Positions 3 through 64,000 of a stretch of 64,000 nt of DNA are shown here, piece by piece. The notes below the pieces were generated by a model. The model did not search any database and had not been told where the DNA came from. It saw only the letters and a list, made by a program, of their open reading frames with translations. The translations under genes were made by a program, and so were the position numbers. Source of the stretch: a virus; IMG/VR virus record IMGVR_UViG_3300017767_000004, positions 2,589-66,588 of that record; one strand, given 5' to 3'. Position 1 is the stretch's first letter; the number at the start of each line of letters is the position of its first letter.

Positions 3-1853
3 CAAAAACCCAAAAATCGCTTCATAACGAATAATGTCGCAAGAACCTATGACAAACATTCAACAATTTGTAACTGTCAAAACTGCAATTCCAGCAGGTT
101 TGTACAAAAAGGGACTTATTCAAGAGTTTACGAAAAAAACCGCCGTCCACAAATGGTAGTAATTGGCGAAAATTTAATCCCAATGTCGCAATCAAACAAT
201 TATTCTGCATCATATGGTAATAATTTAGACGTTGAACAAAGCCGAGGCGTTGATTTAATGGTTTCATCCTTACTCGACAGACCAGACAATAGTTTAGGAA
301 AATCCGATGGAGGATTCTTACTTGCTGACGGAACTGGTTTTGGAAAAACAAGGCAATTACTTGCAGTAGCGGATCAGTGGAAAAAAGAAAGCCCGAAAAC
401 GGGCTTTTCATCTAAGGTTTTAATCGTCACTGAAAACAAGGAAACAATCGATGGTTCGTTCAAAAAAGATGCCGAAGCACTTGGTATCAACACCAATGAC
501 TTTCAATTTACGACCTACACCCAACTTGCCAGTAAAAGTAAAGCAGGCCAAAAAATTGCAGGAGAAAAATATGGCTTAGTTATTTACGATGAAGCTCATA
601 ACATGAAAAATCTGTTGTCTTTTCAATCAGAAGTTTCACGGTCAATCGAAACAGACAAAGCGATATTTGCAACTGCAACCCCATTAGATACAGCGCCAGG
701 TGCAGGTTATTTTCTTTCAAGAGTATCTGGAATAGATCAAGATACAATATTCAATTCACTGGGTATTGTAAAAGAGAAGGGTGCAGGAGGAATTGAATAC
801 TACACGTCTGTATTGCCACCGAGGACAATCAAGAAAAGGCTGGAAAATTACAGAGAGCAACTGATAGCATCAGGCCTTATGATGAGACGAACTTATCCTT
901 TCTATGGCAGCATCATTTCAAGTTCAGTAAAAATGAATAAAGGTGCTCAATTAGAGCAAGAAGACATTTTAGATTTTTACGCAAACCAAGTAAAAAAGTC
1001 AGCAACAACCTCCGGCCAACGCTCTCTTGAGTTGGCAAGGTGGGAAGAATACCAAAAAATCCCAACGATTTATGAAAACATAAAAACATCAATCGAGGAT
1101 GGAAAGCAAGTAGTTGTCGCTTTGAAAACATCAGGAGAGCAAACCTTCAGAGGATTGAAAGAAAACGACAATGAATTAACCAAAAAAGAAGCAGAAAGAC
1201 GCGTTAGAGAATTAAATGAGAGGTATTTTGTCAAGTCAGGTATTCGTCCAGGTCTTTTCGCTAAATTCAAAAATAAAAAAGACGGGTGGTATCCTGGTCG
1301 AAAGGGTGCTACTGAAATAATCATTGAAATGCTCGAAAGAGATGGGATTTCTTACTCGCAACTTACTCAATCTCAAAAAGGAATTAAAGAGGTCAATAAA
1401 TTTCAAAATGGCGAATCTCAAGTAATGATTATGACGCCACAAAGCGGAGGTACAGGAATAAACCTCGACGACTCGAATGGGGATAAACCACGCCATCTAA
1501 TCATAGGCTCGGCTGGTTGGGCAGGGGATAAAATGGAACAAATACTTGGCAGGGTTAGTCGGAAAACGACCAAATCACCTTCATTAGCAGAGATAGTTGG
1601 TCTCCAAGGCGGATTTGCAGACTCTCGCCAGAAAATAGTTTTGAAAGACAAACTATCGGCCTTACGTTCAATCACAGGTAAAACAGATGGAATGGAAATA
1701 GGCGGTGGAAAACTTGGTCTTTGGGACGATATTATATCTGACAGACAACTGAAAAGCATGAAATTGGGTTATGTGGTAAAACCACTAAATCCAATGATTG
1801 ATCCTCTCAATGTGCGCTCAAGCAGGAACGAACTCGAAGTATTTGGGGGCTAA
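3..1853 (+). CDS. Strawberry-notch-like SF2 helicase (AAA_34/Helicase_C_4 type), probably 5'-truncated by the window
   Basis: GGFLLADGTGFGKT (Walker A), YDEAHNMKN, ATATP, QSGGTGINL, WAGDKMEQILGRVSR. The frame is open from nt 3 to the ATG at 153, so the true start may lie upstream. Confidence 0.85.
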   Translation, partial: QKPKNRFITNNVARTYDKHSTICNCQNCNSSRFVQKGTYSRVYEKNRRPQMVVIGENLIPMSQSNNYSASYGNNLDVEQSRGVDLMVSSLLDRPDNSLGKSDGGFLLADGTGFGKTRQLLAVADQWKKESPKTGFSSKVLIVTENKETIDGSFKKDAEALGINTNDFQFTTYTQLASKSKAGQKIAGEKYGLVIYDEAHNMKNLLSFQSEVSRSIETDKAIFATATPLDTAPGAGYFLSRVSGIDQDTIFNSLGIVKEKGAGGIEYYTSVLPPRTIKKRLENYREQLIASGLMMRRTYPFYGSIISSSVKMNKGAQLEQEDILDFYANQVKKSATTSGQRSLELARWEEYQKIPTIYENIKTSIEDGKQVVVALKTSGEQTFRGLKENDNELTKKEAERRVRELNERYFVKSGIRPGLFAKFKNKKDGWYPGRKGATEIIIEMLERDGISYSQLTQSQKGIKEVNKFQNGESQVMIMTPQSGGTGINLDDSNGDKPRHLIIGSAGWAGDKMEQILGRVSRKTTKSPSLAEIVGLQGGFADSRQKIVLKDKLSALRSITGKTDGMEIGGGKLGLWDDIISDRQLKSMKLGYVVKPLNPMIDPLNVRSSRNELEVFGG

Positions 1854-1857
1854 AACA

Positions 1858-3468
1858 ATGCGTATTTATTATTCAAAAAGACAAATTTTCAATCCATTAA
1901 CGGGTAATGTGATACAAAACACATCGGGCAATCGCCAAAGTCTAATAAAACAAATCAATAGATTTAGAGAAACCAATTTTTTCAACTCTCAAGTTCTTGC
2001 AAACGCAGAAGCAATGAACCTAAGATTTATTGCAAAAGGTCGGCCAGATATTGAATCAAATGGAGCAAAGGTAAGCCGTTATTATGGTGGGAATAATTGG
2101 TATTCAGTTCACACATCAACAAAAAACGGCCTAAGCAGGTTAAATTCGAAAGACGCTGAACTGGTCGAATCACAACTTGAATCTGAAACAGGTCTGAATT
2201 GGGATACCGACTCAGTTAGCAACTTTGTTCATCACGCCAGAGGGACTGATGGATTCAATGAATCAATCGCACTGATCTCCTGTTCAAAAAATAAAATATG
2301 GGATGATGAGGAAGAAGCCAAAAAACAGTCAGATAGATATGGTACGGACAACAAAAATAGAAGCATAGCATGGGCTAAGAAAAATGTCATACCTCCCTCG
2401 GAGATGAAAGAGCGAGGATTATTCGGACAAGAGCTTGAAACTGCAGAATTTTGGTGGGATTCTCGAAAAGAAGAATATAACGGGCCTGATTTTGTACCGG
2501 TTGTTGAAGCAAAAGACGCCTATACATCACCTCTTTTCAAAAAAAGTGTTGATTGGGCATTGAATAGAAACATGCCTTTCCACATAATGTCAGCAAAACA
2601 CGGCGCTTTAGAGCCAAAAAACAACATTGAAAATTATGACCTAAAACTTGCTCAATTATCTAAGGCAAAAAGAAAGGAATGGGCCAAAGAAGTCATTGAA
2701 GACTTGAACTTAACCGGCTATCAGTCGAAAAAAAATCGCGTTAAACAGGTTTATCTTCTTGGAGGCAGGTTATATGTTGACACGTTGAAGCCAGAACTTG
2801 AAGCCCTTGGAATAGAAACAATCGAACCCCTCAAAGGTATGAGTATCGGTGAGAGACTTCAATATTTGAAAAATGACAATGAAGCCTTCGAAGAATTGGG
2901 CTTCCAAGAGCAAAAACCCCCAGGCTGGGATGATCCAAGAAAAGGAACTGCATCTTTGGAAACTATGAAAGAGGAAAAACGACGCGACCTTGTTTTGAAA
3001 TGGTCTTCTCCTAAATTAGAAAAACAACTCAAAAGGGTAAGAAATCAACTTACGACCACTAAGCAGGCACAAAGTACAGCCGAGGAAATAATAAGGAACT
3101 TTTCGAGAACTGATGTTTTGAGTTCAAGGAACTCGCCCGTAATAGGAATGCAAGTTCAAAATGAATTCAACGAAACAAACGGAAAAGAATTTGACAAAGC
3201 GATGAAACAACTCAAAAAAGGCAATAATAAGAAACTTAAACAAATGATGGAAAAGCGAGGCATCGACTTTGAGACCTATCAACGTGGAACTCGGATTTAT
3301 GGCGAGGATTTGAAAAAGAAAGCATATGTGAACTCTTTCACACGGCAAGAAGCATGGGATGCAGCAGTAAAATCAGCATTACAAACTTCAGAAAAACTTA
3401 GCAAAAAAGCAAATAAACTTAAAATTAAGGAAAGAGAGCTTCAATCAGCAATACAAAAGAATGCATAA
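1858..3468 (+). CDS. DUF6884 (YaaA-like) domain protein with C-terminal coiled coil
   Basis: ISCSKNK...AKDAYTSPLF...IMSAKHG..P...IENYDLKL...RKEWA...LLGGRLY...PLKGMSIGERLQYL matches the remembered DUF6884 pattern. ATG 1858 follows GGGGG. Confidence 0.7.
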   Translation: MRIYYSKRQIFNPLTGNVIQNTSGNRQSLIKQINRFRETNFFNSQVLANAEAMNLRFIAKGRPDIESNGAKVSRYYGGNNWYSVHTSTKNGLSRLNSKDAELVESQLESETGLNWDTDSVSNFVHHARGTDGFNESIALISCSKNKIWDDEEEAKKQSDRYGTDNKNRSIAWAKKNVIPPSEMKERGLFGQELETAEFWWDSRKEEYNGPDFVPVVEAKDAYTSPLFKKSVDWALNRNMPFHIMSAKHGALEPKNNIENYDLKLAQLSKAKRKEWAKEVIEDLNLTGYQSKKNRVKQVYLLGGRLYVDTLKPELEALGIETIEPLKGMSIGERLQYLKNDNEAFEELGFQEQKPPGWDDPRKGTASLETMKEEKRRDLVLKWSSPKLEKQLKRVRNQLTTTKQAQSTAEEIIRNFSRTDVLSSRNSPVIGMQVQNEFNETNGKEFDKAMKQLKKGNNKKLKQMMEKRGIDFETYQRGTRIYGEDLKKKAYVNSFTRQEAWDAAVKSALQTSEKLSKKANKLKIKERELQSAIQKNA

Positions 3469-58563: not shown

Positions 58564-58720
58564 AGAATTTGATTGGTCACTTGATATGTTTGTCAAATGC
58601 CTAATTTCATGGTTTATCTTACCGTTTGTCATTTGCGCTTGGCCTGTATTGCATTGGAAATACCAATTATCCCCTTCGAGGAATTCTGCCGCCAGCCCTT
58701 CTGAGCATAGCGACCCTTGA
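58553..58720 (+). CDS. Small single-TM protein
   Basis: CLISWFILPFVICAWPVL; 3' end overlaps the GP88-like gene. Confidence 0.5.
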   Translation: MSLEEFDWSLDMFVKCLISWFILPFVICAWPVLHWKYQLSPSRNSAASPSEHSDP

Positions 58721-59773
58721 ACCATTTACTGTTCTTGCGTATGCTCCAGGTGTGTAAACGGCATAAGCCGTGACAGTTTTACCGCCTATGCTCGGTCTAT
58801 GCTCAATAACTCTGGCTTTCCGGCCACCATCCCTAAGTAAATTAGCAGTTTTTTCTGCTACCTTCTTTGATACTTTTGATTGGATTGGGACAAAATCCTC
58901 GCCCTTATCGAATCTCCTTTGGCCGATAATTGAAGGGTCCCTTAATGCCTTTTTCTTGTATTGTTCTAAATTAGTTGTGTCGATGATTCCATTGCCATAA
59001 AGGACAAACCCAGTAGTGTCATAGATAGCCTGCCCCTTGGCAGACAAACCTACGACTGATTTTGGTGGATCAAGAAAACGTAAATCGGAGTCATCGCCGT
59101 CAATTACTTTCCAAGTTAATCCACCTGGTCCTGTCCACTTTGTAGGAACTTGATTTTTGCCAAAAACAACTGCGACGTTTTGTTTCCTATCCATTGCTTG
59201 AGCCACAAACTTATCGTTGTCTTCAGAACGAGAAAATGTCAAAGAATAGTTTGGTAGTGGGTTAATATCTCGGTTCGGTACTTTTGTGTAATCGTAGAAT
59301 TCAACTTCTGGAAAATATTCGAATATTGTTTTCTTTTCTCCGTTTCCATCGTCAAATTCTATTCGTTCCCATCGAATATCCGATGTTCCATTTAATCTAA
59401 ATACAGGGGTCATCCCTCGATTCTTTGCAGTTTTCATCTTAGATTCTATTTCTTTCTTTAGCCGAAGCATGAATGCCTCTTTGTCTTCATTGAAAAATTT
59501 GGTTCTGTTAATACGTGCATTTTGGACTGTCGATGTGCAGCCCAAGCCAGAAGTATTCAAACAAGCTGAAGCACAACCTTTACTGGCTGAAGAGCAAGTA
59601 TTTACTCCAGATAGCGTTGCTGGGGCTAAGTGTAAAATGGCTGTTTGATAACCATACTTTTCGCCCTTCAGCGTTTTGTAATTAGAAGTCCCGAGTAACG
59701 ATGATGTACCCCACTTGTCCGACATTTCCTTCGTGGAAATAACTGGCTTGGATGATTTGGATTTGTCCACCAT
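58667..59773 (-). CDS. GP88-like (radical-SAM-related) phage protein with C-terminal shared module
   Basis: HLAPA...NTCSSASKGCASACL...VFRLNGTSD..WE...FYDYTK...YSLTFSRSE...NVAVVF...VIDGDDSDLRFLD...VVGLSAKG; tail RRFDKGEDF...AEKTANLLRDGGRKARVI...YAVY. Confidence 0.85.
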   Translation of the reverse strand: MVDKSKSSKPVISTKEMSDKWGTSSLLGTSNYKTLKGEKYGYQTAILHLAPATLSGVNTCSSASKGCASACLNTSGLGCTSTVQNARINRTKFFNEDKEAFMLRLKKEIESKMKTAKNRGMTPVFRLNGTSDIRWERIEFDDGNGEKKTIFEYFPEVEFYDYTKVPNRDINPLPNYSLTFSRSEDNDKFVAQAMDRKQNVAVVFGKNQVPTKWTGPGGLTWKVIDGDDSDLRFLDPPKSVVGLSAKGQAIYDTTGFVLYGNGIIDTTNLEQYKKKALRDPSIIGQRRFDKGEDFVPIQSKVSKKVAEKTANLLRDGGRKARVIEHRPSIGGKTVTAYAVYTPGAYARTVNGSRVAMLRRAGGRIPRRG

Positions 59774-59834: not shown

Positions 59835-60170
59835 TCAATGCGTTGTTGCTGGAGGGCCTGGCACTTCATTTGTTATGTCATATTTACCGAGCGTCCATAT
59901 TTTTTGTGAAATAAGTATTGCAAATATTGTTTGTAACGTTGCTGAAAATAAGAGAACTAATTTCATATCTTCAGGAAGGCCAATTCCTCCAACCGCATTA
60001 GTTGAATTTTTTGTCATATCCCAAAACATGAAAATAACCGTATTCATCATCATGGCATTAAGCAATAACCCTCCAATAATGAATATCTTGTTTTCTTTGA
60101 TGAATGCTGATGATTTTGTTTTCTTACTGCTGAGGATCAGCAATCGCGGTATGCTCTGGAATTTAGTCAT
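59835..60170 (-). CDS. Two-TM membrane protein
   Basis: Two hydrophobic helices; ATG 60170 after AAGGTGA. Confidence 0.7.
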   Translation of the reverse strand: MTKFQSIPRLLILSSKKTKSSAFIKENKIFIIGGLLLNAMMMNTVIFMFWDMTKNSTNAVGGIGLPEDMKLVLLFSATLQTIFAILISQKIWTLGKYDITNEVPGPPATTH

Positions 60171-60356
60171 ATTATTCACCTTATTTTTTCTTATTTTTTG
60201 GTCTCAGCTTATGGATTTTGATTTCTCTTCTTCTCTATTACTCTAATTAGTCTAATTGTCTTGTCAAACCGAAGTACTCGCGTACGTGTAGTAGCATATA
60301 CTTAGTCAGCCGAGAATCCAGAATATAGGATTGAATATTCTTTTTCGAGAAATACA

Positions 60357-61736
60357 TCAAATCAGCCCTGCGGTCAAATCCCATAATACGGGCTTCTTAT
60401 TTCTGGTTGGTAGTTCTTTTGCTAAGGTTCTGGAAAGATTCTTTATTCTTTCAGGGCAGTTATCAAACTTATTTCTGTGTCCCCAGCGTTGTAATGGTCC
60501 ACCTCCACCCATTCTTTCTTTTTCTGCCCCTCCTTTACCATACAAAACTTCTGAAATTGCTGCCCACTGCATACTCGCACCTCGCATTATTTGTCGGTTG
60601 ATTCTTTCTCTAACCTGTTCGATGTTTTCTGTATCGGGCGTTATTCCGATGAATGAATGGTATTCAGCCATCTTTTCTTCATCTTCAATATTCTTTTCAA
60701 TTAACTGAATTTCTTCTTTTGCTAAGTTATTGCATCTCATCAAAACACATTCGGGAGGCCACGGCGCACCTGATAATTCAAGGGATTTAGACTTCTTCAA
60801 ATCCTCTCGCCATTCCATCCAAGTTGGAGGTTTTGTTTCATAGAAGGTTAGCCATGTTCCTTGATCCCCTTGGTCTTCATTCAATTGAGTCATCGCCAAC
60901 CCTGGGTCTTTCCTTTTCATTTCTGGAATTATTGCTCGGTAAACTTCTCTAAAGGTGGCGATTGGCATGTCTTCGAGTCTTTCTCTAAGTTGCCTCAGTC
61001 CTGAAAATCGGTCATATGTCAGCCCATCCATGTCCCTGCCCCTCTTAGCCGCCATCTTTGCTTGAACCATATTCATTATTGTCCACACGTTGTAGTGTCT
61101 GGAACGAGTCAATTTTTCTGCCCACTTTTTTTGGTCTTTCGAAACTGCACCTGACCTCAAAGCAAGTGGTACTTCGTCATAAACTTCGAGCAGTGGAAAG
61201 TTTGCCTCTTGACGGTCTGTTACGAACCAATCAGGACACCTAAACCATCCTGGCTCTGCTGGGACATAGCCATTTACATCGCCGTAAACATATACCCGAG
61301 GGTCGCCGTATTCGAACGACAACTTCCATTCTTTCGCTTCATTCAGCCATGTTTCGGCCATCCCATAACTAAAAATCGATTTTCCTTGGCCTCTATCGCC
61401 AAAAACCCAAAGAATTTCGCACTTCCTTTCGCATGTAAAACCAACCTCAAGTAGTCTTGAGGGATAAAGGATAAGTGGGGCGTTATTCTTTGTACCACTA
61501 CCATCCAATGTATTATCTCTACCTACTGGAATGATTTTGGTCCAAGAAGCCCAGCGATTGAAAAACCATTTCAAGGTGGTCATATCTGTCCCTCCTTGGC
61601 AATATGTTCTGTAAGCCCTCCGAAGTGTTGCAAATATTTCTGGTGGCATTCCTCTATCGATACAAGCTCTATTGAAGTCGTCCCAACTCAAGAATTTCTC
61701 TCCGCCTGATTTAGCCATTTTTACACCCGCATACAT
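60357..61736 (-). CDS. P-loop ATPase, FtsK/HerA superfamily (A32/Zot/pleolipovirus-type pattern)
   Basis: Walker A GDRGQGKS, Walker B LEVYDE, then TRSRH.N.WTI..MVQ (Arg-finger/Gln pattern). Confidence 0.75.
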   Translation of the reverse strand: MYAGVKMAKSGGEKFLSWDDFNRACIDRGMPPEIFATLRRAYRTYCQGGTDMTTLKWFFNRWASWTKIIPVGRDNTLDGSGTKNNAPLILYPSRLLEVGFTCERKCEILWVFGDRGQGKSIFSYGMAETWLNEAKEWKLSFEYGDPRVYVYGDVNGYVPAEPGWFRCPDWFVTDRQEANFPLLEVYDEVPLALRSGAVSKDQKKWAEKLTRSRHYNVWTIMNMVQAKMAAKRGRDMDGLTYDRFSGLRQLRERLEDMPIATFREVYRAIIPEMKRKDPGLAMTQLNEDQGDQGTWLTFYETKPPTWMEWREDLKKSKSLELSGAPWPPECVLMRCNNLAKEEIQLIEKNIEDEEKMAEYHSFIGITPDTENIEQVRERINRQIMRGASMQWAAISEVLYGKGGAEKERMGGGGPLQRWGHRNKFDNCPERIKNLSRTLAKELPTRNKKPVLWDLTAGLI

Positions 61737-61837
61737 TCAAATGAATTTCACACTTCAAACAAAACCATTCACCGCAATCACACAACACAACCCAATTTAA
61801 CGATGGGTGTACCTTTTGGCTCGGGTGAATGTAAATT

Positions 61838-62758
61838 TCATTCCTCCTGGTCACTGCCATTTTTAATCAAATCTCCCTCGTTAAGTTCTGCCAATTCAAG
61901 TAGTTGATCCTCAGTTAAAACCGAGTCCAGGCTTTCAAGAATAGTTTCTGTATCCATTTGTTCATCTAAGTTAGATTCAGGCAAGCAATCTATGCAACTT
62001 TCAACCATGTACATTCCGTCTTCGTCTTCAGCAACAACATAAGGTTTGACCATATTGCAATATGGGCAACGTCCTGTTGGTATGTCCTGGGGAGTTGGTC
62101 GCAAGTGGTTGCCTTCTTCTTCATCCATAGCCAATTCTCGCATCATTTCTTGGTCTGCAATCATTTCCCTCATCGCTGCATTATCTGCAACTCTCTGCTC
62201 ATGGGCCATTGCTTCGGTTCTCCTTCTTTGCATTTCTGCTTCTGCCGATGAAAGCACCGTTGATAATGATTCTTTGTCGTGTTTGTTCTTGGAAAACAAT
62301 TTGGCTAAATCCTCTGTGTTAGCGCCCATCTGAGTCAATTGCATAAGGGACTGGGCAAGTTGAATTTGAAGTTTGGCTGTCGTTTCTGCGAGTTCCGCCT
62401 GCCTTATTGCTGAAGCCATCGCTATATTTTTTGGCTCGAGGTATTCTAATTGCTGCCTCGACATACGCATTGCAACTGCTTGAGCATAATCTCCTAAATC
62501 ATCAGGCCACATTGCCCAATGGATCAATATACCATTTTCTAAGGGCATCCCTACTTGTTCCAAAAAAGAATGTTCTGCCGATGCTAATTTTAACCAAAGG
62601 ATATGTTTAGCCCTTGGAGGGAGATATGACCATGAATCCGTCATAGAGAGAATCATGGTGTCAATAAATCTAAACTGATCGTTTAGCCTATCGGCAACGG
62701 GAACCATGAACAAATCTCGGCCACTTCTCGGTTGAGGTCCTGATGGTCCGTTATTCAC
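61838..62758 (-). CDS. Coiled-coil protein with Zn ribbon and acidic tail
   Basis: Long heptad region; CPYC...CIDC. Confidence 0.7.
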   Translation of the reverse strand: MNNGPSGPQPRSGRDLFMVPVADRLNDQFRFIDTMILSMTDSWSYLPPRAKHILWLKLASAEHSFLEQVGMPLENGILIHWAMWPDDLGDYAQAVAMRMSRQQLEYLEPKNIAMASAIRQAELAETTAKLQIQLAQSLMQLTQMGANTEDLAKLFSKNKHDKESLSTVLSSAEAEMQRRRTEAMAHEQRVADNAAMREMIADQEMMRELAMDEEEGNHLRPTPQDIPTGRCPYCNMVKPYVVAEDEDGMYMVESCIDCLPESNLDEQMDTETILESLDSVLTEDQLLELAELNEGDLIKNGSDQEE

Positions 62759-62762
62759 TTTT

Positions 62763-63134
62763 TCAACCCTCCAGGTAATACCAACCGTTGATTATAGTTG
62801 CAAATGAAATCCATAGCACGTAAGGAACGAGAAGATATGCTGCTGTCGAGTTGTATGGATAAATTAACACAACGTATGCAATGGAAAAGGCAACCATGCC
62901 GATTATGATTAAGAATGACATGAAATAGTCTGACTCATCAAAGAATGACGCCCATATCAAATTCAAAGCGAGTTGAAATCCAAACAAAACAAAGATTTCA
63001 GCAGGTATTTTTTCTCTGTCATTCCAAGCTACTACAATTGAAAAAAGCATTGTAGCATAAAGGAAAAACCATACAGGTCCAAATATCCAAGAAGGAGGTT
63101 GAAACCAAGGCTTGTTTGCAGCATCGAAACTCAA
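62763..63134 (-). CDS. tspO: TspO/MBR tryptophan-rich sensory protein, lacking the first TM helix
   Basis: KPWFQPPSWIFGPVW..LY; FQLALN.IW; LLVPY..W..FAT.IN; TTG start directly after the upstream TGA. Confidence 0.9.
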   Translation of the reverse strand: MSFDAANKPWFQPPSWIFGPVWFFLYATMLFSIVVAWNDREKIPAEIFVLFGFQLALNLIWASFFDESDYFMSFLIIIGMVAFSIAYVVLIYPYNSTAAYLLVPYVLWISFATIINGWYYLEG

Positions 63135-63830
63135 TCAACCAACTCCATCGATTTGATCCATTTGACCTGCAACATATCTTTGTGAAATCTCTTCGAGTTG
63201 TTGTTCCCTAAATCCTTGTCGCATTGCGAGGTCTTCCTCGGCAGCAATTTGGCCTCTTGACATAGAACCTGCCGTAGTCCTAAACTCAATGTCAACATCT
63301 TGTCCGTCAATCTCAAGCACATTTGCAGTTATGTGAACGATGTTTCTATATCTGGATGCTATGTCTTTCCTAACGCGTAATATTTTCTTATCCCTTCGAG
63401 TCATTATGAAGTGTCCTCCTGTGTCCTCAATTCGCCTTAAAGTGGTGATTCTCGGAATACCTGGGTCGTTCTCCACCCAATGTAGTTTAGGCCGTGAATT
63501 TTGAAGTACAAAGGACGCAATCATTCCAATAGTAGTGAAAAATCCAATGTAAATCATTATTTCGAATCTGGAGAAGGTAGGCGTTGCGAAAAATGATTCC
63601 ATAGGGCCGTAAAACCATGCCCCAAATGCTCCAAGCGGGACGGCAATCCATCCCAAAATAAGTATAATACCTGCAAAAATTAGGCCAGTAGCCCAACCCT
63701 CAATCCTTGCACCCTCTCTGTCTCCTGGGTTCGATTGGTCTTGTTGTTGCTGTGGTTGAGCAGGCATTCCGAGCAATTGTTGCATTAGCATTGGATCATC
63801 AAATAACATATCTTCTTCTGGCGGTTGCAT
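63135..63830 (-). CDS. Two-TM membrane protein with soluble C-terminal domain
   Basis: ATG 63830 after GGAAGGAG; two hydrophobic helices. Confidence 0.7.
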   Translation of the reverse strand: MQPPEEDMLFDDPMLMQQLLGMPAQPQQQQDQSNPGDREGARIEGWATGLIFAGIILILGWIAVPLGAFGAWFYGPMESFFATPTFSRFEIMIYIGFFTTIGMIASFVLQNSRPKLHWVENDPGIPRITTLRRIEDTGGHFIMTRRDKKILRVRKDIASRYRNIVHITANVLEIDGQDVDIEFRTTAGSMSRGQIAAEEDLAMRQGFREQQLEEISQRYVAGQMDQIDGVG

Positions 63831-63831
63831 T

Positions 63832-64000
63832 TTACCATCTCCTTCCATAACGGTTTTGTCTATCCCAATATTCTTTTTCCTGTTGCTCTCTCAATCTTCG
63901 TTCTCGTCGTCGTTGAGACCATCCAGGCATATTGTCTGTGCCATCGTCTTTACGTTGTCTCAGAGATTGTTCTCTAAATTTATTGTAAAAAGCAAAGCAT
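63832..64000 (-). CDS. 3' end of a hypothetical gene starting beyond the window
   Basis: Open frame ...AFYNKFREQSLRQRKDDG...RRRERRLREQQEKEYWDRQNRYGRRW*. Confidence 0.55.
   Translation of the reverse strand, partial: CFAFYNKFREQSLRQRKDDGTDNMPGWSQRRRERRLREQQEKEYWDRQNRYGRRW

What the first reader, a model, noticed from the sequence alone, without database searches (positions are those of the whole stretch)
59835..64000. Membrane-protein plus A32/Zot-type ATPase operon: candidate non-tailed packaging or extrusion machine
Seen: minus-strand run of a 2-TM protein, TspO, a coiled-coil/Zn protein, an ATPase (GDRGQGKS, YDE, RSRH...Q) and another 2-TM protein. Known: the Walker B-R-H-x-Q arrangement characterises FtsK/HerA-superfamily genome-packaging or extrusion ATPases (A32-like, inovirus pI/Zot, pleolipovirus NTPase), not terminases. 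Inference: morphogenesis module of a membrane-containing particle. A conjugation-type coupling ATPase is an alternative.
Basis: partly seen in the sequence, partly recalled or inferred. Interest (0 to 1): 0.7.

Follow-up and report, generated by a model that had tools for sequence, protein, structure and literature searches.

The report
Membrane-docked FtsK/HerA-type virus ATPase module
An uncultured marine virus-like element of about 65-70 kb carries a new family of DNA-pump-type (FtsK/HerA) ATPase that always sits behind the same three membrane-associated partner genes, most likely the motor that loads its DNA into a membrane-bearing particle, though this is untested.

Summary
The minus strand from 64000 down to 58667 is one gene run: the end of membrane protein X, a 2-TM protein, TspO, a 306-aa soluble protein, a 49-aa Cys/His mini-protein, a 459-aa ATPase, a small 2-TM protein and a GP88-family protein.

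The ATPase has no Pfam or PHROG family and only 12 representative clusters among 1.8 billion proteins. A confident model of residues 62-330 (pLDDT 85) matches only FtsK/HerA-superfamily motors at the top: VirB4 Z 15.4, HerA 13.6, STIV2 packaging NTPase B204 13.2, FtsK 11.5. RecA-like folds come lower, and no terminase is listed. Walker A, Walker B and the Arg/His...Gln motif are present.

The order X, 2-TM, 306-aa protein, ATPase recurs in all nine marine relatives that span it. It also recurs, at about 30% identity, in two GC-rich integrated elements, where it ends an operon of envelope-type glycoproteins. TspO, the Zn ribbon and the downstream 2-TM gene are not part of this core.

The DNA occurs in viral-fraction metagenomes. 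The best reading is a membrane-docked genome-translocating motor of a membrane-containing particle. This is inferred, not shown. No capsid gene is known, and binding of the partners could not be established.

The parts
63832..64000 (-). 3' end (last 55 codons) of gene X. In relatives X is an about-300-aa protein with a signal peptide and a C-terminal TM anchor. It is the first gene of the conserved four-gene core, and most of it lies beyond the window.
   Evidence: The open-ended ORF appears. It is 53-60% identical to the C-termini of 303-338-aa proteins in L001, L012, L013, L015 and L016. X of L001 and L004 is 31-34% identical (E 1e-34 to 3e-40) to the gene in the same position in the integrated elements L006 and L007. 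Topology comes from hydropathy.
63135..63848 (-). 237-aa membrane protein (g237). It has a Gln/Pro-rich N-terminus, two TM helices (57-75, 97-115), an invariant W..PG.PR motif just after TM2, and an about-120-aa soluble C-terminal domain. Proposed membrane anchor of the motor.
   Evidence: Hydropathy is and alignment A5 with its invariant columns. It is 61-72% identical in 8 marine loci and 22-26% identical (E 1e-8 to 1e-10) in L006 and L007, always in the same position. No Pfam or PHROG family matches.
62763..63134 (-). Short TspO/MBR homologue (123 aa, four predicted TM helices, lacking canonical TM1). An accessory gene inserted into the module, not part of the conserved core.
   Evidence: Pfam PF03073, E 3.2e-28, matches profile positions 24-141 of 145. 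Four TM helices are predicted. The gene is present in all marine relatives but upstream of X in L015, and absent from L006 and L007.
61838..62758 (-). 306-aa soluble acidic protein (g306). It has a conserved N-terminal domain (about residues 1-145), a Gln/Glu/Ala-rich middle, a CxxC...CxxC Zn ribbon and an acidic tail. Proposed adaptor between the membrane proteins and the ATPase.
   Evidence: Alignment A4 has its 18 invariant columns all within residues 41-145. The Zn ribbon is missing in L014, L004, L006 and L007. The tail is acidic in the marine clade and Arg-rich in L006 and L007. The gene lies upstream of the ATPase in every locus, directly so except in L004, where a 222-aa gene lies between.
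61711..61860 (-). 49-aa Cys/His-rich mini-protein gene (g49) bridging the end of g306 and the start of the ATPase. Probably a small Zn-binding protein. Present only in the subclade that has a gap between the two genes.
   Evidence: The ORF is. It is conserved in L001, L011, L012 and L016, with invariant H18, C27, C29, W32, C34, C37, E38, H40 and C46.
60357..61736 (-). 459-aa ATPase with no TM helix. It has an N-terminal helical domain (1-62), an FtsK/HerA-type P-loop domain (about 62-330) and a C-terminal helical domain (about 328-447). The real start is probably the ATG at 61718 (M7), where the homologues begin.
   Evidence: Alignments are A1, A2 and A6. Models are me9691e4a6375 (pLDDT 75.8) and m0278940785c4 (pLDDT 85.4, pTM 0.87). 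Fold searches are. It is the only canonical Walker A among window ORFs of 100 aa or more.
61377..61400 (-). Walker A motif (P-loop), GDRGQGKS, residues 113-120.
   Evidence: G118, K119 and S120 are invariant in all 24 family members. The motif lies between strand 108-111 and helix 119-134 of the model.
61173..61178 (-). Walker B acidic pair, D187-E188, at the end of strand 182-186.
   Evidence: Invariant in all 24 members.
61062..61100 (-). Third FtsK/HerA motif: R213-H214 at the end of the helix before the next core strand (217-223), with Q225 just after that strand.
   Evidence: R213 and H214 are invariant in all 24 members. Q225 is conserved in the marine clade only. The same layout occurs in PRD1 P9, read from its sequence.
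59835..60179 (-). Small basic 2-TM protein (114 aa as listed). It more likely starts at ATG 60170, which is preceded by AAGGTGA. Its position is conserved but its sequence is only weakly conserved. Not part of the core.
   Evidence: The ORF is, the TM helices and the Shine-Dalgarno-like site. Best matches are 26-29% identical in L001 and L011 (E 8e-5 and 0.01). Small 2-TM proteins follow the ATPase in L001 (93 aa) and L004 (140 aa), but not in L006 or L007.
58667..59773 (-). GP88-family protein (368 aa), the last gene of the minus-strand run. It carries the virus-wide basic tag at its C-terminus. Function unknown.
   Evidence: Pfam PF17338, E 2e-42, and phrog_1617, E 2e-67. The tag HMM hits residues 294-363 at E 4e-20. 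The gene follows the ATPase in all marine relatives that reach that far.

Best explanation
The 459-aa protein is the founding member of a new, very small family of FtsK/HerA-superfamily P-loop ATPases. FtsK/HerA proteins are ring-forming pumps for DNA or proteins.

The ATPase has no membrane anchor of its own. It is always encoded behind the same three genes: X (signal peptide, ectodomain and TM anchor), a 2-TM protein with a cytoplasmic C-terminal domain, and a soluble protein of 280-345 aa.

The most likely mechanism runs as follows. X and the 2-TM protein form a site in the host membrane or the nascent particle membrane. The soluble protein and the cytoplasmic domain of the 2-TM protein recruit the ATPase there. 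The ATPase assembles into a ring and uses ATP to move the element's double-stranded DNA across or into a membrane-bounded particle. The flanking helical domains of the ATPase, which in short relatives are replaced by an HTH or a Zn ribbon, would hold or recognise the DNA. This corresponds to the job of PRD1 P9 with P6, P20 and P22, or of inovirus pI.

Shown: the fold class, the catalytic motifs, the conservation, the gene order, and the presence of the DNA in viral-fraction libraries.

Inferred: ring formation, DNA as the substrate, docking to the neighbouring proteins, and that the end product is a virion.

TspO is an accessory host-type gene that landed inside the operon.
For: Fold. The domain model (pLDDT 85.4, pTM 0.87) was aligned to 48,161 PDB chains.
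- The first 21 rows are all FtsK/HerA members: VirB4 Z 15.4 (192 aligned, rmsd 2.9), DndH-C 14.9, HerA 13.6, STIV2 B204 packaging NTPase 13.2 (178 of its 204 residues), TcpA 12.6, EccC 11.9, FtsK 11.5 and TrwB 11.1.
- The first other fold (UvsX) scores 10.3.
- Foldseek against PDB gives HerA 3e-5, FtsK 9e-5, B204 2e-4 and Zot 5e-4.
- In Swiss-Prot AFDB the top 30 are all FtsK, EccC or EssC.
- In the ESM Atlas the nearest are Zot-like viral ATPases (TM 0.6-0.7), HerA (0.66) and FtsK.
- In BFVD, most of the higher-probability weak rows are annotated packaging ATPases (A32-like, virophage).

Motifs. GKS, DE and R213-H214 are invariant in 24 members, with Q225 after the next strand. PMC11703096 states that Walker A, Walker B and a third motif with an Arg and a polar residue, mostly Gln, characterise these ATPases.

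Context.
- X, the 2-TM protein, the 306-aa protein and the ATPase are co-linear in the nine marine loci that span them. They are also co-linear in the integrated elements L006 and L007, at 29-34%, 31-34%, 22-26% and 30-34% identity.
- In L006 and L007 they end a co-directional operon of signal-peptide, TM-anchored proteins. That operon includes a homologue of the window's 973-aa glycoprotein.
- PRD1 has a comparable local order: P6, P10, P9 ATPase, then small TM proteins P20 and P22.

DNA-binding ends. Short relatives carry a C-terminal HTH (P0030 HTH_7, E 4e-5; P0034 HTH_23) or a Zn ribbon (P0031).

Particle association. The 5.2-kb stretch is held by 'viral metagenome' runs from nine or more samples other than the possible source, and relatives are in IMG/VR.

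Uniqueness. It is the only canonical Walker A among window ORFs of 100 aa or more.
Against: - No capsid, portal or other particle protein has been recognised in the window. A32-like ATPases normally travel with jelly-roll capsid proteins.
- At 459 aa with two extra domains, the protein is unlike the 200-270-aa viral packaging ATPases.
- The nearest structural matches (VirB4, DndH-C, HerA) are not packaging enzymes, and the rank order within the superfamily is not decisive.
- Q225 is not conserved in the distant relatives.
- No sequence-level link exists to Pox_A32, Zot, FtsK_SpoIIIE or any PHROG. hhalign to PRD1 P9 aligns only the P-loop.
- 'Viral metagenome' is the submitters' label and would also fit vesicle-borne DNA.
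Confidence: 0.5

Rival explanations
1. The ATPase is a conjugation-type DNA-transfer motor. It would act as a VirB4-, TraB- or Ced-like translocase that moves the element's DNA cell to cell through a membrane channel built by the neighbouring membrane proteins. The element would then be an integrative mobile element or plasmid rather than a virus.
For: - The best single structural match is VirB4 (Z 15.4), and the coupling proteins TcpA (12.6) and TrwB (11.1) are also high.
- Distant relatives are integrated. L006 has a tyrosine integrase next to tRNA-Ile, and L007 lies in a 3.0-Mb contig.
- The ATPase sits among multi-TM proteins and small 2-TM proteins. From general knowledge, this recalls VirB6, VirB3 and VirB2, and a C-terminal DNA-recognition domain recalls FtsK gamma or Streptomyces TraB.
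Against: - No relaxase, VirD4-type N-terminal TM anchor or any Pfam T4SS family was found in the proteins scanned here or in the gene tables of the fetched loci.
- The ATPase is half the size of VirB4.
- The DNA is found mainly in viral-fraction libraries and in IMG/VR.
- The operon partners in L006 and L007 are mostly large signal-peptide ectodomain proteins with one C-terminal anchor, which looks more like an envelope than a channel.
Confidence: 0.15
2. The ATPase is a protein-moving motor, like EccC/EssC of type VII secretion or VirB4. It would load or export the virus's many proteins that share a basic tag of about 50 aa, using the tag as an address.
For: - EccC and EssC motor domains are among the best matches (Z 11-12; Foldseek 9e-5).
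- A GP88 protein carrying the tag closes the same gene run.
Against: - The four-gene core exists in L006 and L007 without any detectable tag in the 21 kb held for each, so the motor does not need the tag system.
- None of the core four proteins carries the tag.
- Short relatives end in DNA-binding-type modules.
Confidence: 0.1
3. The ATPase is a genome-maintenance or counter-defence enzyme of the HerA/DndH kind, acting in DNA end processing, segregation of the replicon or a defence-like complex. Its place next to membrane proteins would be incidental.
For: - DndH-C (Z 14.9), HerA (13.6), HerA-DUF, HerA-Sir2 and HerA-NurA are among the top matches.
- HerA-like proteins reach the highest TM by query in the Atlas (0.66).
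Against: - No NurA, Sir2, Dnd or other partner typical of HerA systems is adjacent.
- The partners that are conserved over about 30% identity are membrane proteins in a fixed order.
- The HerA-specific N-terminal barrel domain was not seen. The N-terminus here is a four-helix domain.
Confidence: 0.15

Closest known systems
[quoted passage not shown]
   Same: - The P-loop fold is the same: B204 scores Z 13.2 with 178 of its 204 residues aligned at rmsd 3.1, and Foldseek gives 2e-4.
- Walker A, Walker B and the Arg...Gln third motif share the same layout. In P9 the Gln is the 11th residue after the Arg and here the 12th.
- The gene sits beside a soluble partner and small TM proteins, as in PRD1 with P6, P10, P9, P20 and P22.
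- There is no nuclease domain.
   Different: - It is twice as long, with extra N- and C-terminal helical domains.
- No Pox_A32 Pfam hit, and hhalign to P9 aligns only the P-loop.
- No jelly-roll capsid gene is recognised nearby.
- The partners X, the 2-TM protein and the 306-aa protein matched no PRD1-like family in PHROGs (the latter two scanned) and carry no Pfam family. They were not compared directly with P6, P20 or P22.
Zot / inovirus pI assembly-extrusion ATPases
   Same: - The ATPase fold is the same. In the ESM Atlas, Zot-like viral clusters are the nearest shapes (TM 0.60 by query, 0.63-0.70 by hit).
- The Neisseria Zot N-domain scores Z 8.8 and Foldseek 5e-4.
- Language-model neighbours include Zot clusters, some with a C-terminal HTH.
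   Different: - No Pfam Zot hit.
- pI has its own TM segment and periplasmic domain. This protein has no TM, and the membrane link would have to come from separate proteins.
- The element is about 65-70 kb, not a filamentous ssDNA phage.
VirB4 / HerA / FtsK / EccC cellular motors
   Same: They give the highest structural scores (VirB4 15.4, DndH-C 14.9, HerA 13.6, FtsK 11.5, EccC 11.9). They share the motifs and a C-terminal substrate-recognition idea, as with FtsK gamma.
   Different: - This protein is much shorter and lacks the VirB4 N-domain, the HerA barrel and the FtsK TM and linker.
- No family-level sequence match.
- It is encoded on a virus-like element with its own conserved partners.
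Pleolipovirus morphogenetic module (HRPV-1 VP3, VP4, ORF6, ORF7, VP8 ATPase)
   Same: - The operon logic is the same as in L006 and L007: a signal-peptide, TM-anchored glycoprotein, small membrane proteins, and then a TM-less P-loop ATPase as one of the last genes.
- 10.1101/2025.02.15.638363 describes this as the canonical module of pleomorphic archaeal viruses.
- It is a membrane-vesicle-like virus without an icosahedral capsid.
   Different: - No detectable similarity to VP8, ORF6 or ORF7 (hhalign probability below 3%).
- That preprint calls the pleolipovirus ATPase AAA+, whereas this one folds as FtsK/HerA.
- The genome is ten times larger.

Membership tests
[quoted passage not shown] | Walker A and Walker B (acidic pair) on an ASCE-type core | tested here: met
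   GKS at 118-120 and D187-E188 are invariant in 24 members. They lie after strand 108-111 and at the end of strand 182-186 of the model.
[quoted passage not shown] | A third motif with a conserved Arg before, and a polar residue (mostly Gln) after, the strand following Walker B (as summarised in PMC11703096) | tested here: met
   R213-H214 are invariant and end helix 200-215. The next strand is 217-223, followed by Q225. Caveat: Q225 is conserved only in the marine clade.
[quoted passage not shown] | Overall fold closest to solved members of the superfamily | tested here: met
   The top 21 of 48,161 chains are all members, with Z 15.4 to 10.6. The first non-member scores 10.3. The Swiss-Prot top 30 are all FtsK, EccC or EssC.
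[quoted passage not shown] | Ring (hexamer) assembly and substrate-stimulated ATP hydrolysis | not tested
No oligomer model or assay was done.
A32-like / PRD1 P9-type virus packaging ATPases | Sequence membership (Pfam Pox_A32 or related PHROG) | tested here: not met
   No hit at E up to 10 for any of the 24 members. There are no PHROG hits. hhalign to P9 aligns only 21 P-loop columns.
A32-like / PRD1 P9-type virus packaging ATPases | Compact single-domain protein of about 200-270 aa | tested here: not met
   The protein is 459 aa with helical domains at 1-62 and about 328-447. The short relatives are still 365-388 aa.
A32-like / PRD1 P9-type virus packaging ATPases | Encoded together with a jelly-roll major capsid protein | not tested
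   No capsid family was hit in the Pfam or PHROG scans of 29 window proteins.
Zot / inovirus pI | Pfam Zot domain, plus its own TM segment after the ATPase domain | tested here: not met
   No Zot hit, and no hydrophobic segment in the ATPase. Only the fold resembles it.
Terminase large subunit | Terminase-type ATPase fold followed by an RNase H-like nuclease domain | tested here: inconclusive
   No terminase appears among the 50 rows or the 30 rows, and the C-terminal domain is all-helical. One language-model neighbour cluster is labelled terminase N-domain (a lead only).
T4SS VirB4 / coupling proteins | Pfam families (CagE_TrbE_VirB, T4SS-DNA_transf, TraG-D_C), large size or an N-terminal TM anchor, and co-encoded relaxase and channel parts | tested here: not met
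   No such Pfam hit, and no TM. No relaxase or T4SS family appears in the gene tables of L001, L004, L006 or L007. The fold resemblance is high (Z 15.4).
TspO/MBR | Pfam PF03073 above the gathering score | tested here: met
   98.7 bits against a cut-off of 24.
TspO/MBR | Five TM helices | tested here: not met
   The match starts at profile position 24, and four helices are predicted. All relatives are 119-128 aa.
Pleolipovirus morphogenetic module | Homology to HRPV-1 VP8, ORF6 and ORF7 | tested here: not met
   hhalign probabilities are 2.1%, 0.3% and 0.4%. A language-model neighbour of the 2-TM protein comes from Saleviricota at a score of 0.82, which is only a lead.

The most novel reading that the evidence does not exclude
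X, the 2-TM protein, the 306-aa protein and this ATPase may form the hallmark morphogenetic core of an unrecognised lineage of large (57-73 kb) membrane-enveloped DNA viruses that have no known capsid fold. The lineage would span free marine elements, possibly of Thermoplasmatota, and integrated elements in GC-rich prokaryotes. In it, an FtsK/HerA motor would load DNA into a lipid particle without a jelly-roll shell, a combination not described so far.
Probability: 0.3. Interest if true: 0.8.

Novelty: new variant of a known kind. Interest (0 to 1): 0.6.

Why it matters
FtsK/HerA-type ATPases are the signature motors of membrane-containing viruses with jelly-roll capsids and of filamentous phages. 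Here one sits in a large marine element that shows no recognisable capsid, portal or terminase but encodes many membrane proteins.

The four-gene core is conserved down to 30% identity. That gives a concrete marker set for finding this lineage in metagenomes and genomes. It also offers a defined set of four proteins for testing how such particles are filled. The integrated relatives, one in a closed 3.0-Mb contig, offer a route to a cultivable or inducible system.

The result also separates the machine from its passengers, TspO and the DUF6884 gene. This matters for reading the element's light- and porphyrin-related accessory genes.

Tried and rejected
- Sequence families for the ATPase: Pfam and PHROGs gave nothing beyond P-loop noise. 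A PDB sequence profile search gave nothing.
- tblastn of the distant relative P0024 against 50,697 phage records found no match.
- hhalign of the family against PRD1 P9, and against HRPV-1 VP8, ORF6 and ORF7, aligned only the P-loop or nothing.
- Fold searches with the full-length model were weak: best Foldseek E 6e-3 and best Z 7.2. The domain-only model was needed.
- Complex prediction for the ATPase plus the 306-aa protein gave no verdict (score 0.00). It says nothing either way.
- Profile searches for further relatives added only one protein, P0034. No bridge to a named family appeared.
- Looking for relatives of P0024 in species genomes found none.
- Alignment A2 was too divergent for the locus finder.
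- Host link: one 5.6-kb contig binned into a Poseidoniaceae MAG. Among 301 genomes of that order, only that MAG matched. The host therefore remains open, and no integrated copy was found in those searched.
- The idea that the motor is tied to the basic tag: the tag HMM found nothing in L006, L007 or L008.
- The Atlas search for the 306-aa protein gave no usable hit.
- RNA runs: no RNA holder was listed.
- The 45-aa ORF at 60247-60384 has no conserved counterpart and is treated as spurious.
- No whole genome is held for this window.
- The organism of L006 and L007 could not be identified. The integrase scores best with the archaeal XerA model but far below its cut-off, and the flanking lysine 6-transaminase fragment does not decide the domain.

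Full report
**What is there.**
The window is a virus-like element. It has no tRNA genes, few family hits and many orphan proteins. A 45-kb plus-strand block meets a minus-strand run at its right end.

The minus-strand run reads, from 64000 down to 58667:
- the last 55 codons of a gene I call X;
- a 237-aa protein with two TM helices (g237);
- a 123-aa TspO;
- a 306-aa acidic soluble protein with CPYC and CIDC (g306);
- a 49-aa Cys/His mini-ORF (g49);
- the 459-aa ATPase;
- a small basic 2-TM protein (g114);
- a GP88-family protein.

The run is longer than its coordinates at both ends.

**These are real genes.**
The ATPase has 21 close homologues (53-97% identity) from ENA, JGI, NCBI, Tara and Logan assemblies, on contigs of up to 72.9 kb. 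IMG/VR holds six more loci. The 237-aa, 306-aa, TspO and GP88 genes are each 40-72% identical in these loci, and the order of the core genes is kept. The mini-ORF g49 keeps seven Cys/His positions, one Trp and one Glu in four other loci. The 45-aa ORF at 60247-60384 is not conserved.

**Classifying the ATPase.**
Sequence methods fail:
- Pfam and PHROGs see only the P-loop.
- A PDB profile search finds nothing.
- An exhaustive phmmer search of 1.84 billion representatives finds 12 proteins in all.

The family is therefore new and tiny. Across the 24 members the invariant residues are G118-K119-S120, G152-D153, P159, P181, D187-E188, R213-H214, W218, R234, D242, R253, W306, R310 and P443.

The full-length AlphaFold model (pLDDT 75.8) gave only weak matches. 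Even so, all ten Atlas rows were FtsK, TraG/VirB4, Zot or A32 clusters, apart from one unnamed viral cluster. A model of residues 62-330, built on a deeper alignment, is confident (pLDDT 85.4, pTM 0.87) and gives a clear answer:
- By VIA-align against 48,161 chains, the first 21 rows are all FtsK/HerA-superfamily proteins: VirB4 Z 15.4, DndH-C 14.9, HerA 13.6, STIV2 packaging NTPase B204 13.2, TcpA 12.6, EccC 11.9, FtsK 11.5 and TrwB 11.1. RecA-like proteins start at 10.3.
- Foldseek agrees against PDB, against Swiss-Prot models, where all top 30 are FtsK, EccC or EssC, and against the Atlas.

The third motif fits as well. R213-H214 close the helix before strand 217-223, and Q225 follows that strand. 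This is the layout that PMC11703096 summarises for the superfamily. It lines up with the GR...SQ stretch of PRD1 P9 read from its genome. Q225 is not kept in the distant relatives. Placement within the superfamily (A32-like, Zot-like, VirB4/HerA-like) cannot be decided from these scores.

**Extra domains.**
The protein has a four-helix N-terminal domain and a helical C-terminal domain, both well conserved. Short relatives of 365-388 aa replace the C-terminal part with an HTH (P0030, HTH_7, E 4e-5; P0034, HTH_23, from a Thermoplasmatota MAG) or a Zn ribbon (P0031). This suggests a nucleic-acid-binding end, as in FtsK gamma. For the window's own protein this is inference only.

**Context is the strongest functional clue.**
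Two distant relatives of the ATPase (29-34% identity) lie in GC-rich integrated elements:
- L006 has a tyrosine integrase next to tRNA-Ile and a cellular aminotransferase gene beyond it.
- L007 lies inside a 3.0-Mb contig.

In both, the three genes before the ATPase are homologues of X (31-34%, E down to 3e-40), of the 2-TM protein (22-26%) and of the N-terminal domain of the 306-aa protein (30-34%), in the same order. Upstream, in the same operon, are proteins with signal peptides and C-terminal anchors, and small multi-TM proteins. Among them is a homologue of the window's 973-aa glycoprotein.

So a four-gene core, X, 2-TM, soluble protein and ATPase, has stayed together across very different genomes (GC 37% to 67%). 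It belongs with envelope-type proteins.

By contrast:
- TspO is missing from L006 and L007 and sits elsewhere in L015.
- A DUF6884 gene is inserted in L001 and L004 only.
- The Zn ribbon of the 306-aa protein is missing in L014, L004, L006 and L007.
- The downstream 2-TM gene is conserved by position in the marine clade but hardly in sequence.

These features are not part of the machine.

**Is it a particle-forming element?**
The 5.2-kb stretch is held, at 38-91% of sampled words, by runs labelled viral metagenome from at least nine samples other than the possible source. Two seawater metagenome runs also hold it. Relatives are in IMG/VR.

The ATPase is the only canonical Walker A protein among window ORFs of 100 aa or more. 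If the element needs a translocating motor, this is therefore the candidate. PRD1 offers the closest worked example: the P9 ATPase encoded after P6 and P10 and before the small membrane proteins P20 and P22. Pleolipoviruses offer a parallel operon logic (10.1101/2025.02.15.638363) but show no detectable homology.

**Best explanation and its limits.**
I read the module as a membrane-docked, ring-forming DNA translocase that fills or extrudes a membrane-containing particle (confidence 0.5). The fold class itself is near certain.

Three rivals remain:
- a conjugation-like DNA-transfer motor (0.15);
- a protein-cargo motor tied to the virus-wide basic tag (0.1);
- a HerA/DndH-like genome-maintenance enzyme (0.15).

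I recovered the basic tag in 18 window proteins, including GP88, but not in the core four, and not in L006 or L007.

The complex prediction for the ATPase with the 306-aa protein gave no verdict. Host assignment is weak: one binned 5.6-kb contig in a Poseidoniaceae MAG, and no other hit in 301 genomes of that order.

**Novelty.**
This is a new ATPase family within a known superfamily. It has a new domain architecture and a new, conserved set of membrane partners, and it sits in an element that lacks known capsid genes. It is best filed as a new variant of a known kind.

An earlier follow-up report on a stretch that overlaps or touches this one exists in the scan but was withheld. The notes I could see concern other parts of the same genome.

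Noticed in passing
window 62763-63134 (minus strand): The viral TspO is short (123 aa) and begins at the conserved loop before canonical TM2, so it lacks TM1. All relatives share this form (119-128 aa).
   Followed up: partly
window 61711-61860 (minus strand): A 49-aa Cys/His-rich mini-gene overlaps the end of the 306-aa gene and the start of the ATPase. It is conserved in four other loci, with invariant H, four C, W, E, H and C. It is absent where the two genes overlap directly (L013, L014, L015, L004).
   Followed up: partly
window 61838-62758; L006 9152-10000; L007 9055-9984: The C-terminal tail of the 306-aa protein family changes charge. It is strongly acidic in the marine clade and Arg-rich and basic in the two integrated GC-rich elements, while the N-terminal domain is conserved.
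   Followed up: no
window 58667-59773 (minus strand): The GP88-family protein (PF17338, phrog_1617, function unknown) closes the gene run and carries the shared basic tag at residues 294-363. In L004 a PAPS-reductase-family gene is inserted before it.
   Followed up: partly
window 1798-3468; L001 7644-8807; L004 7458-8495: A DUF6884 protein is a separate gene between TspO and the 306-aa gene in L001 and L004. In the window, the matching segment lies in the 556-aa protein at 1798-3468, so this domain moves around the genome.
   Followed up: no
L006 18531-19606: The distant relative L006 is integrated next to a tRNA-Ile (GAT) gene. It has a tyrosine recombinase that scores best with the archaeal XerA model (far below cut-off), and a lysine 6-transaminase-like fragment lies beyond. 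The host domain is undecided.
   Followed up: partly
P0030, P0031, P0034 (loci L005 and short contigs): A short subfamily (365-388 aa) of the ATPase carries a C-terminal HTH or Zn ribbon in place of the helical domain. One member is annotated from a Thermoplasmatota MAG. An unnamed AlphaFold DB entry of 364 aa (L0HLC5) matches the full-length model at E 7e-10.
   Followed up: partly
window 60180-60356: The 177-nt AT-rich gap after the ATPase holds a promoter-like TTGACA-16-TAGAGT on the minus strand and an AAGGTGA site before ATG 60170. The small 2-TM gene may therefore have its own start signals.
   Followed up: no
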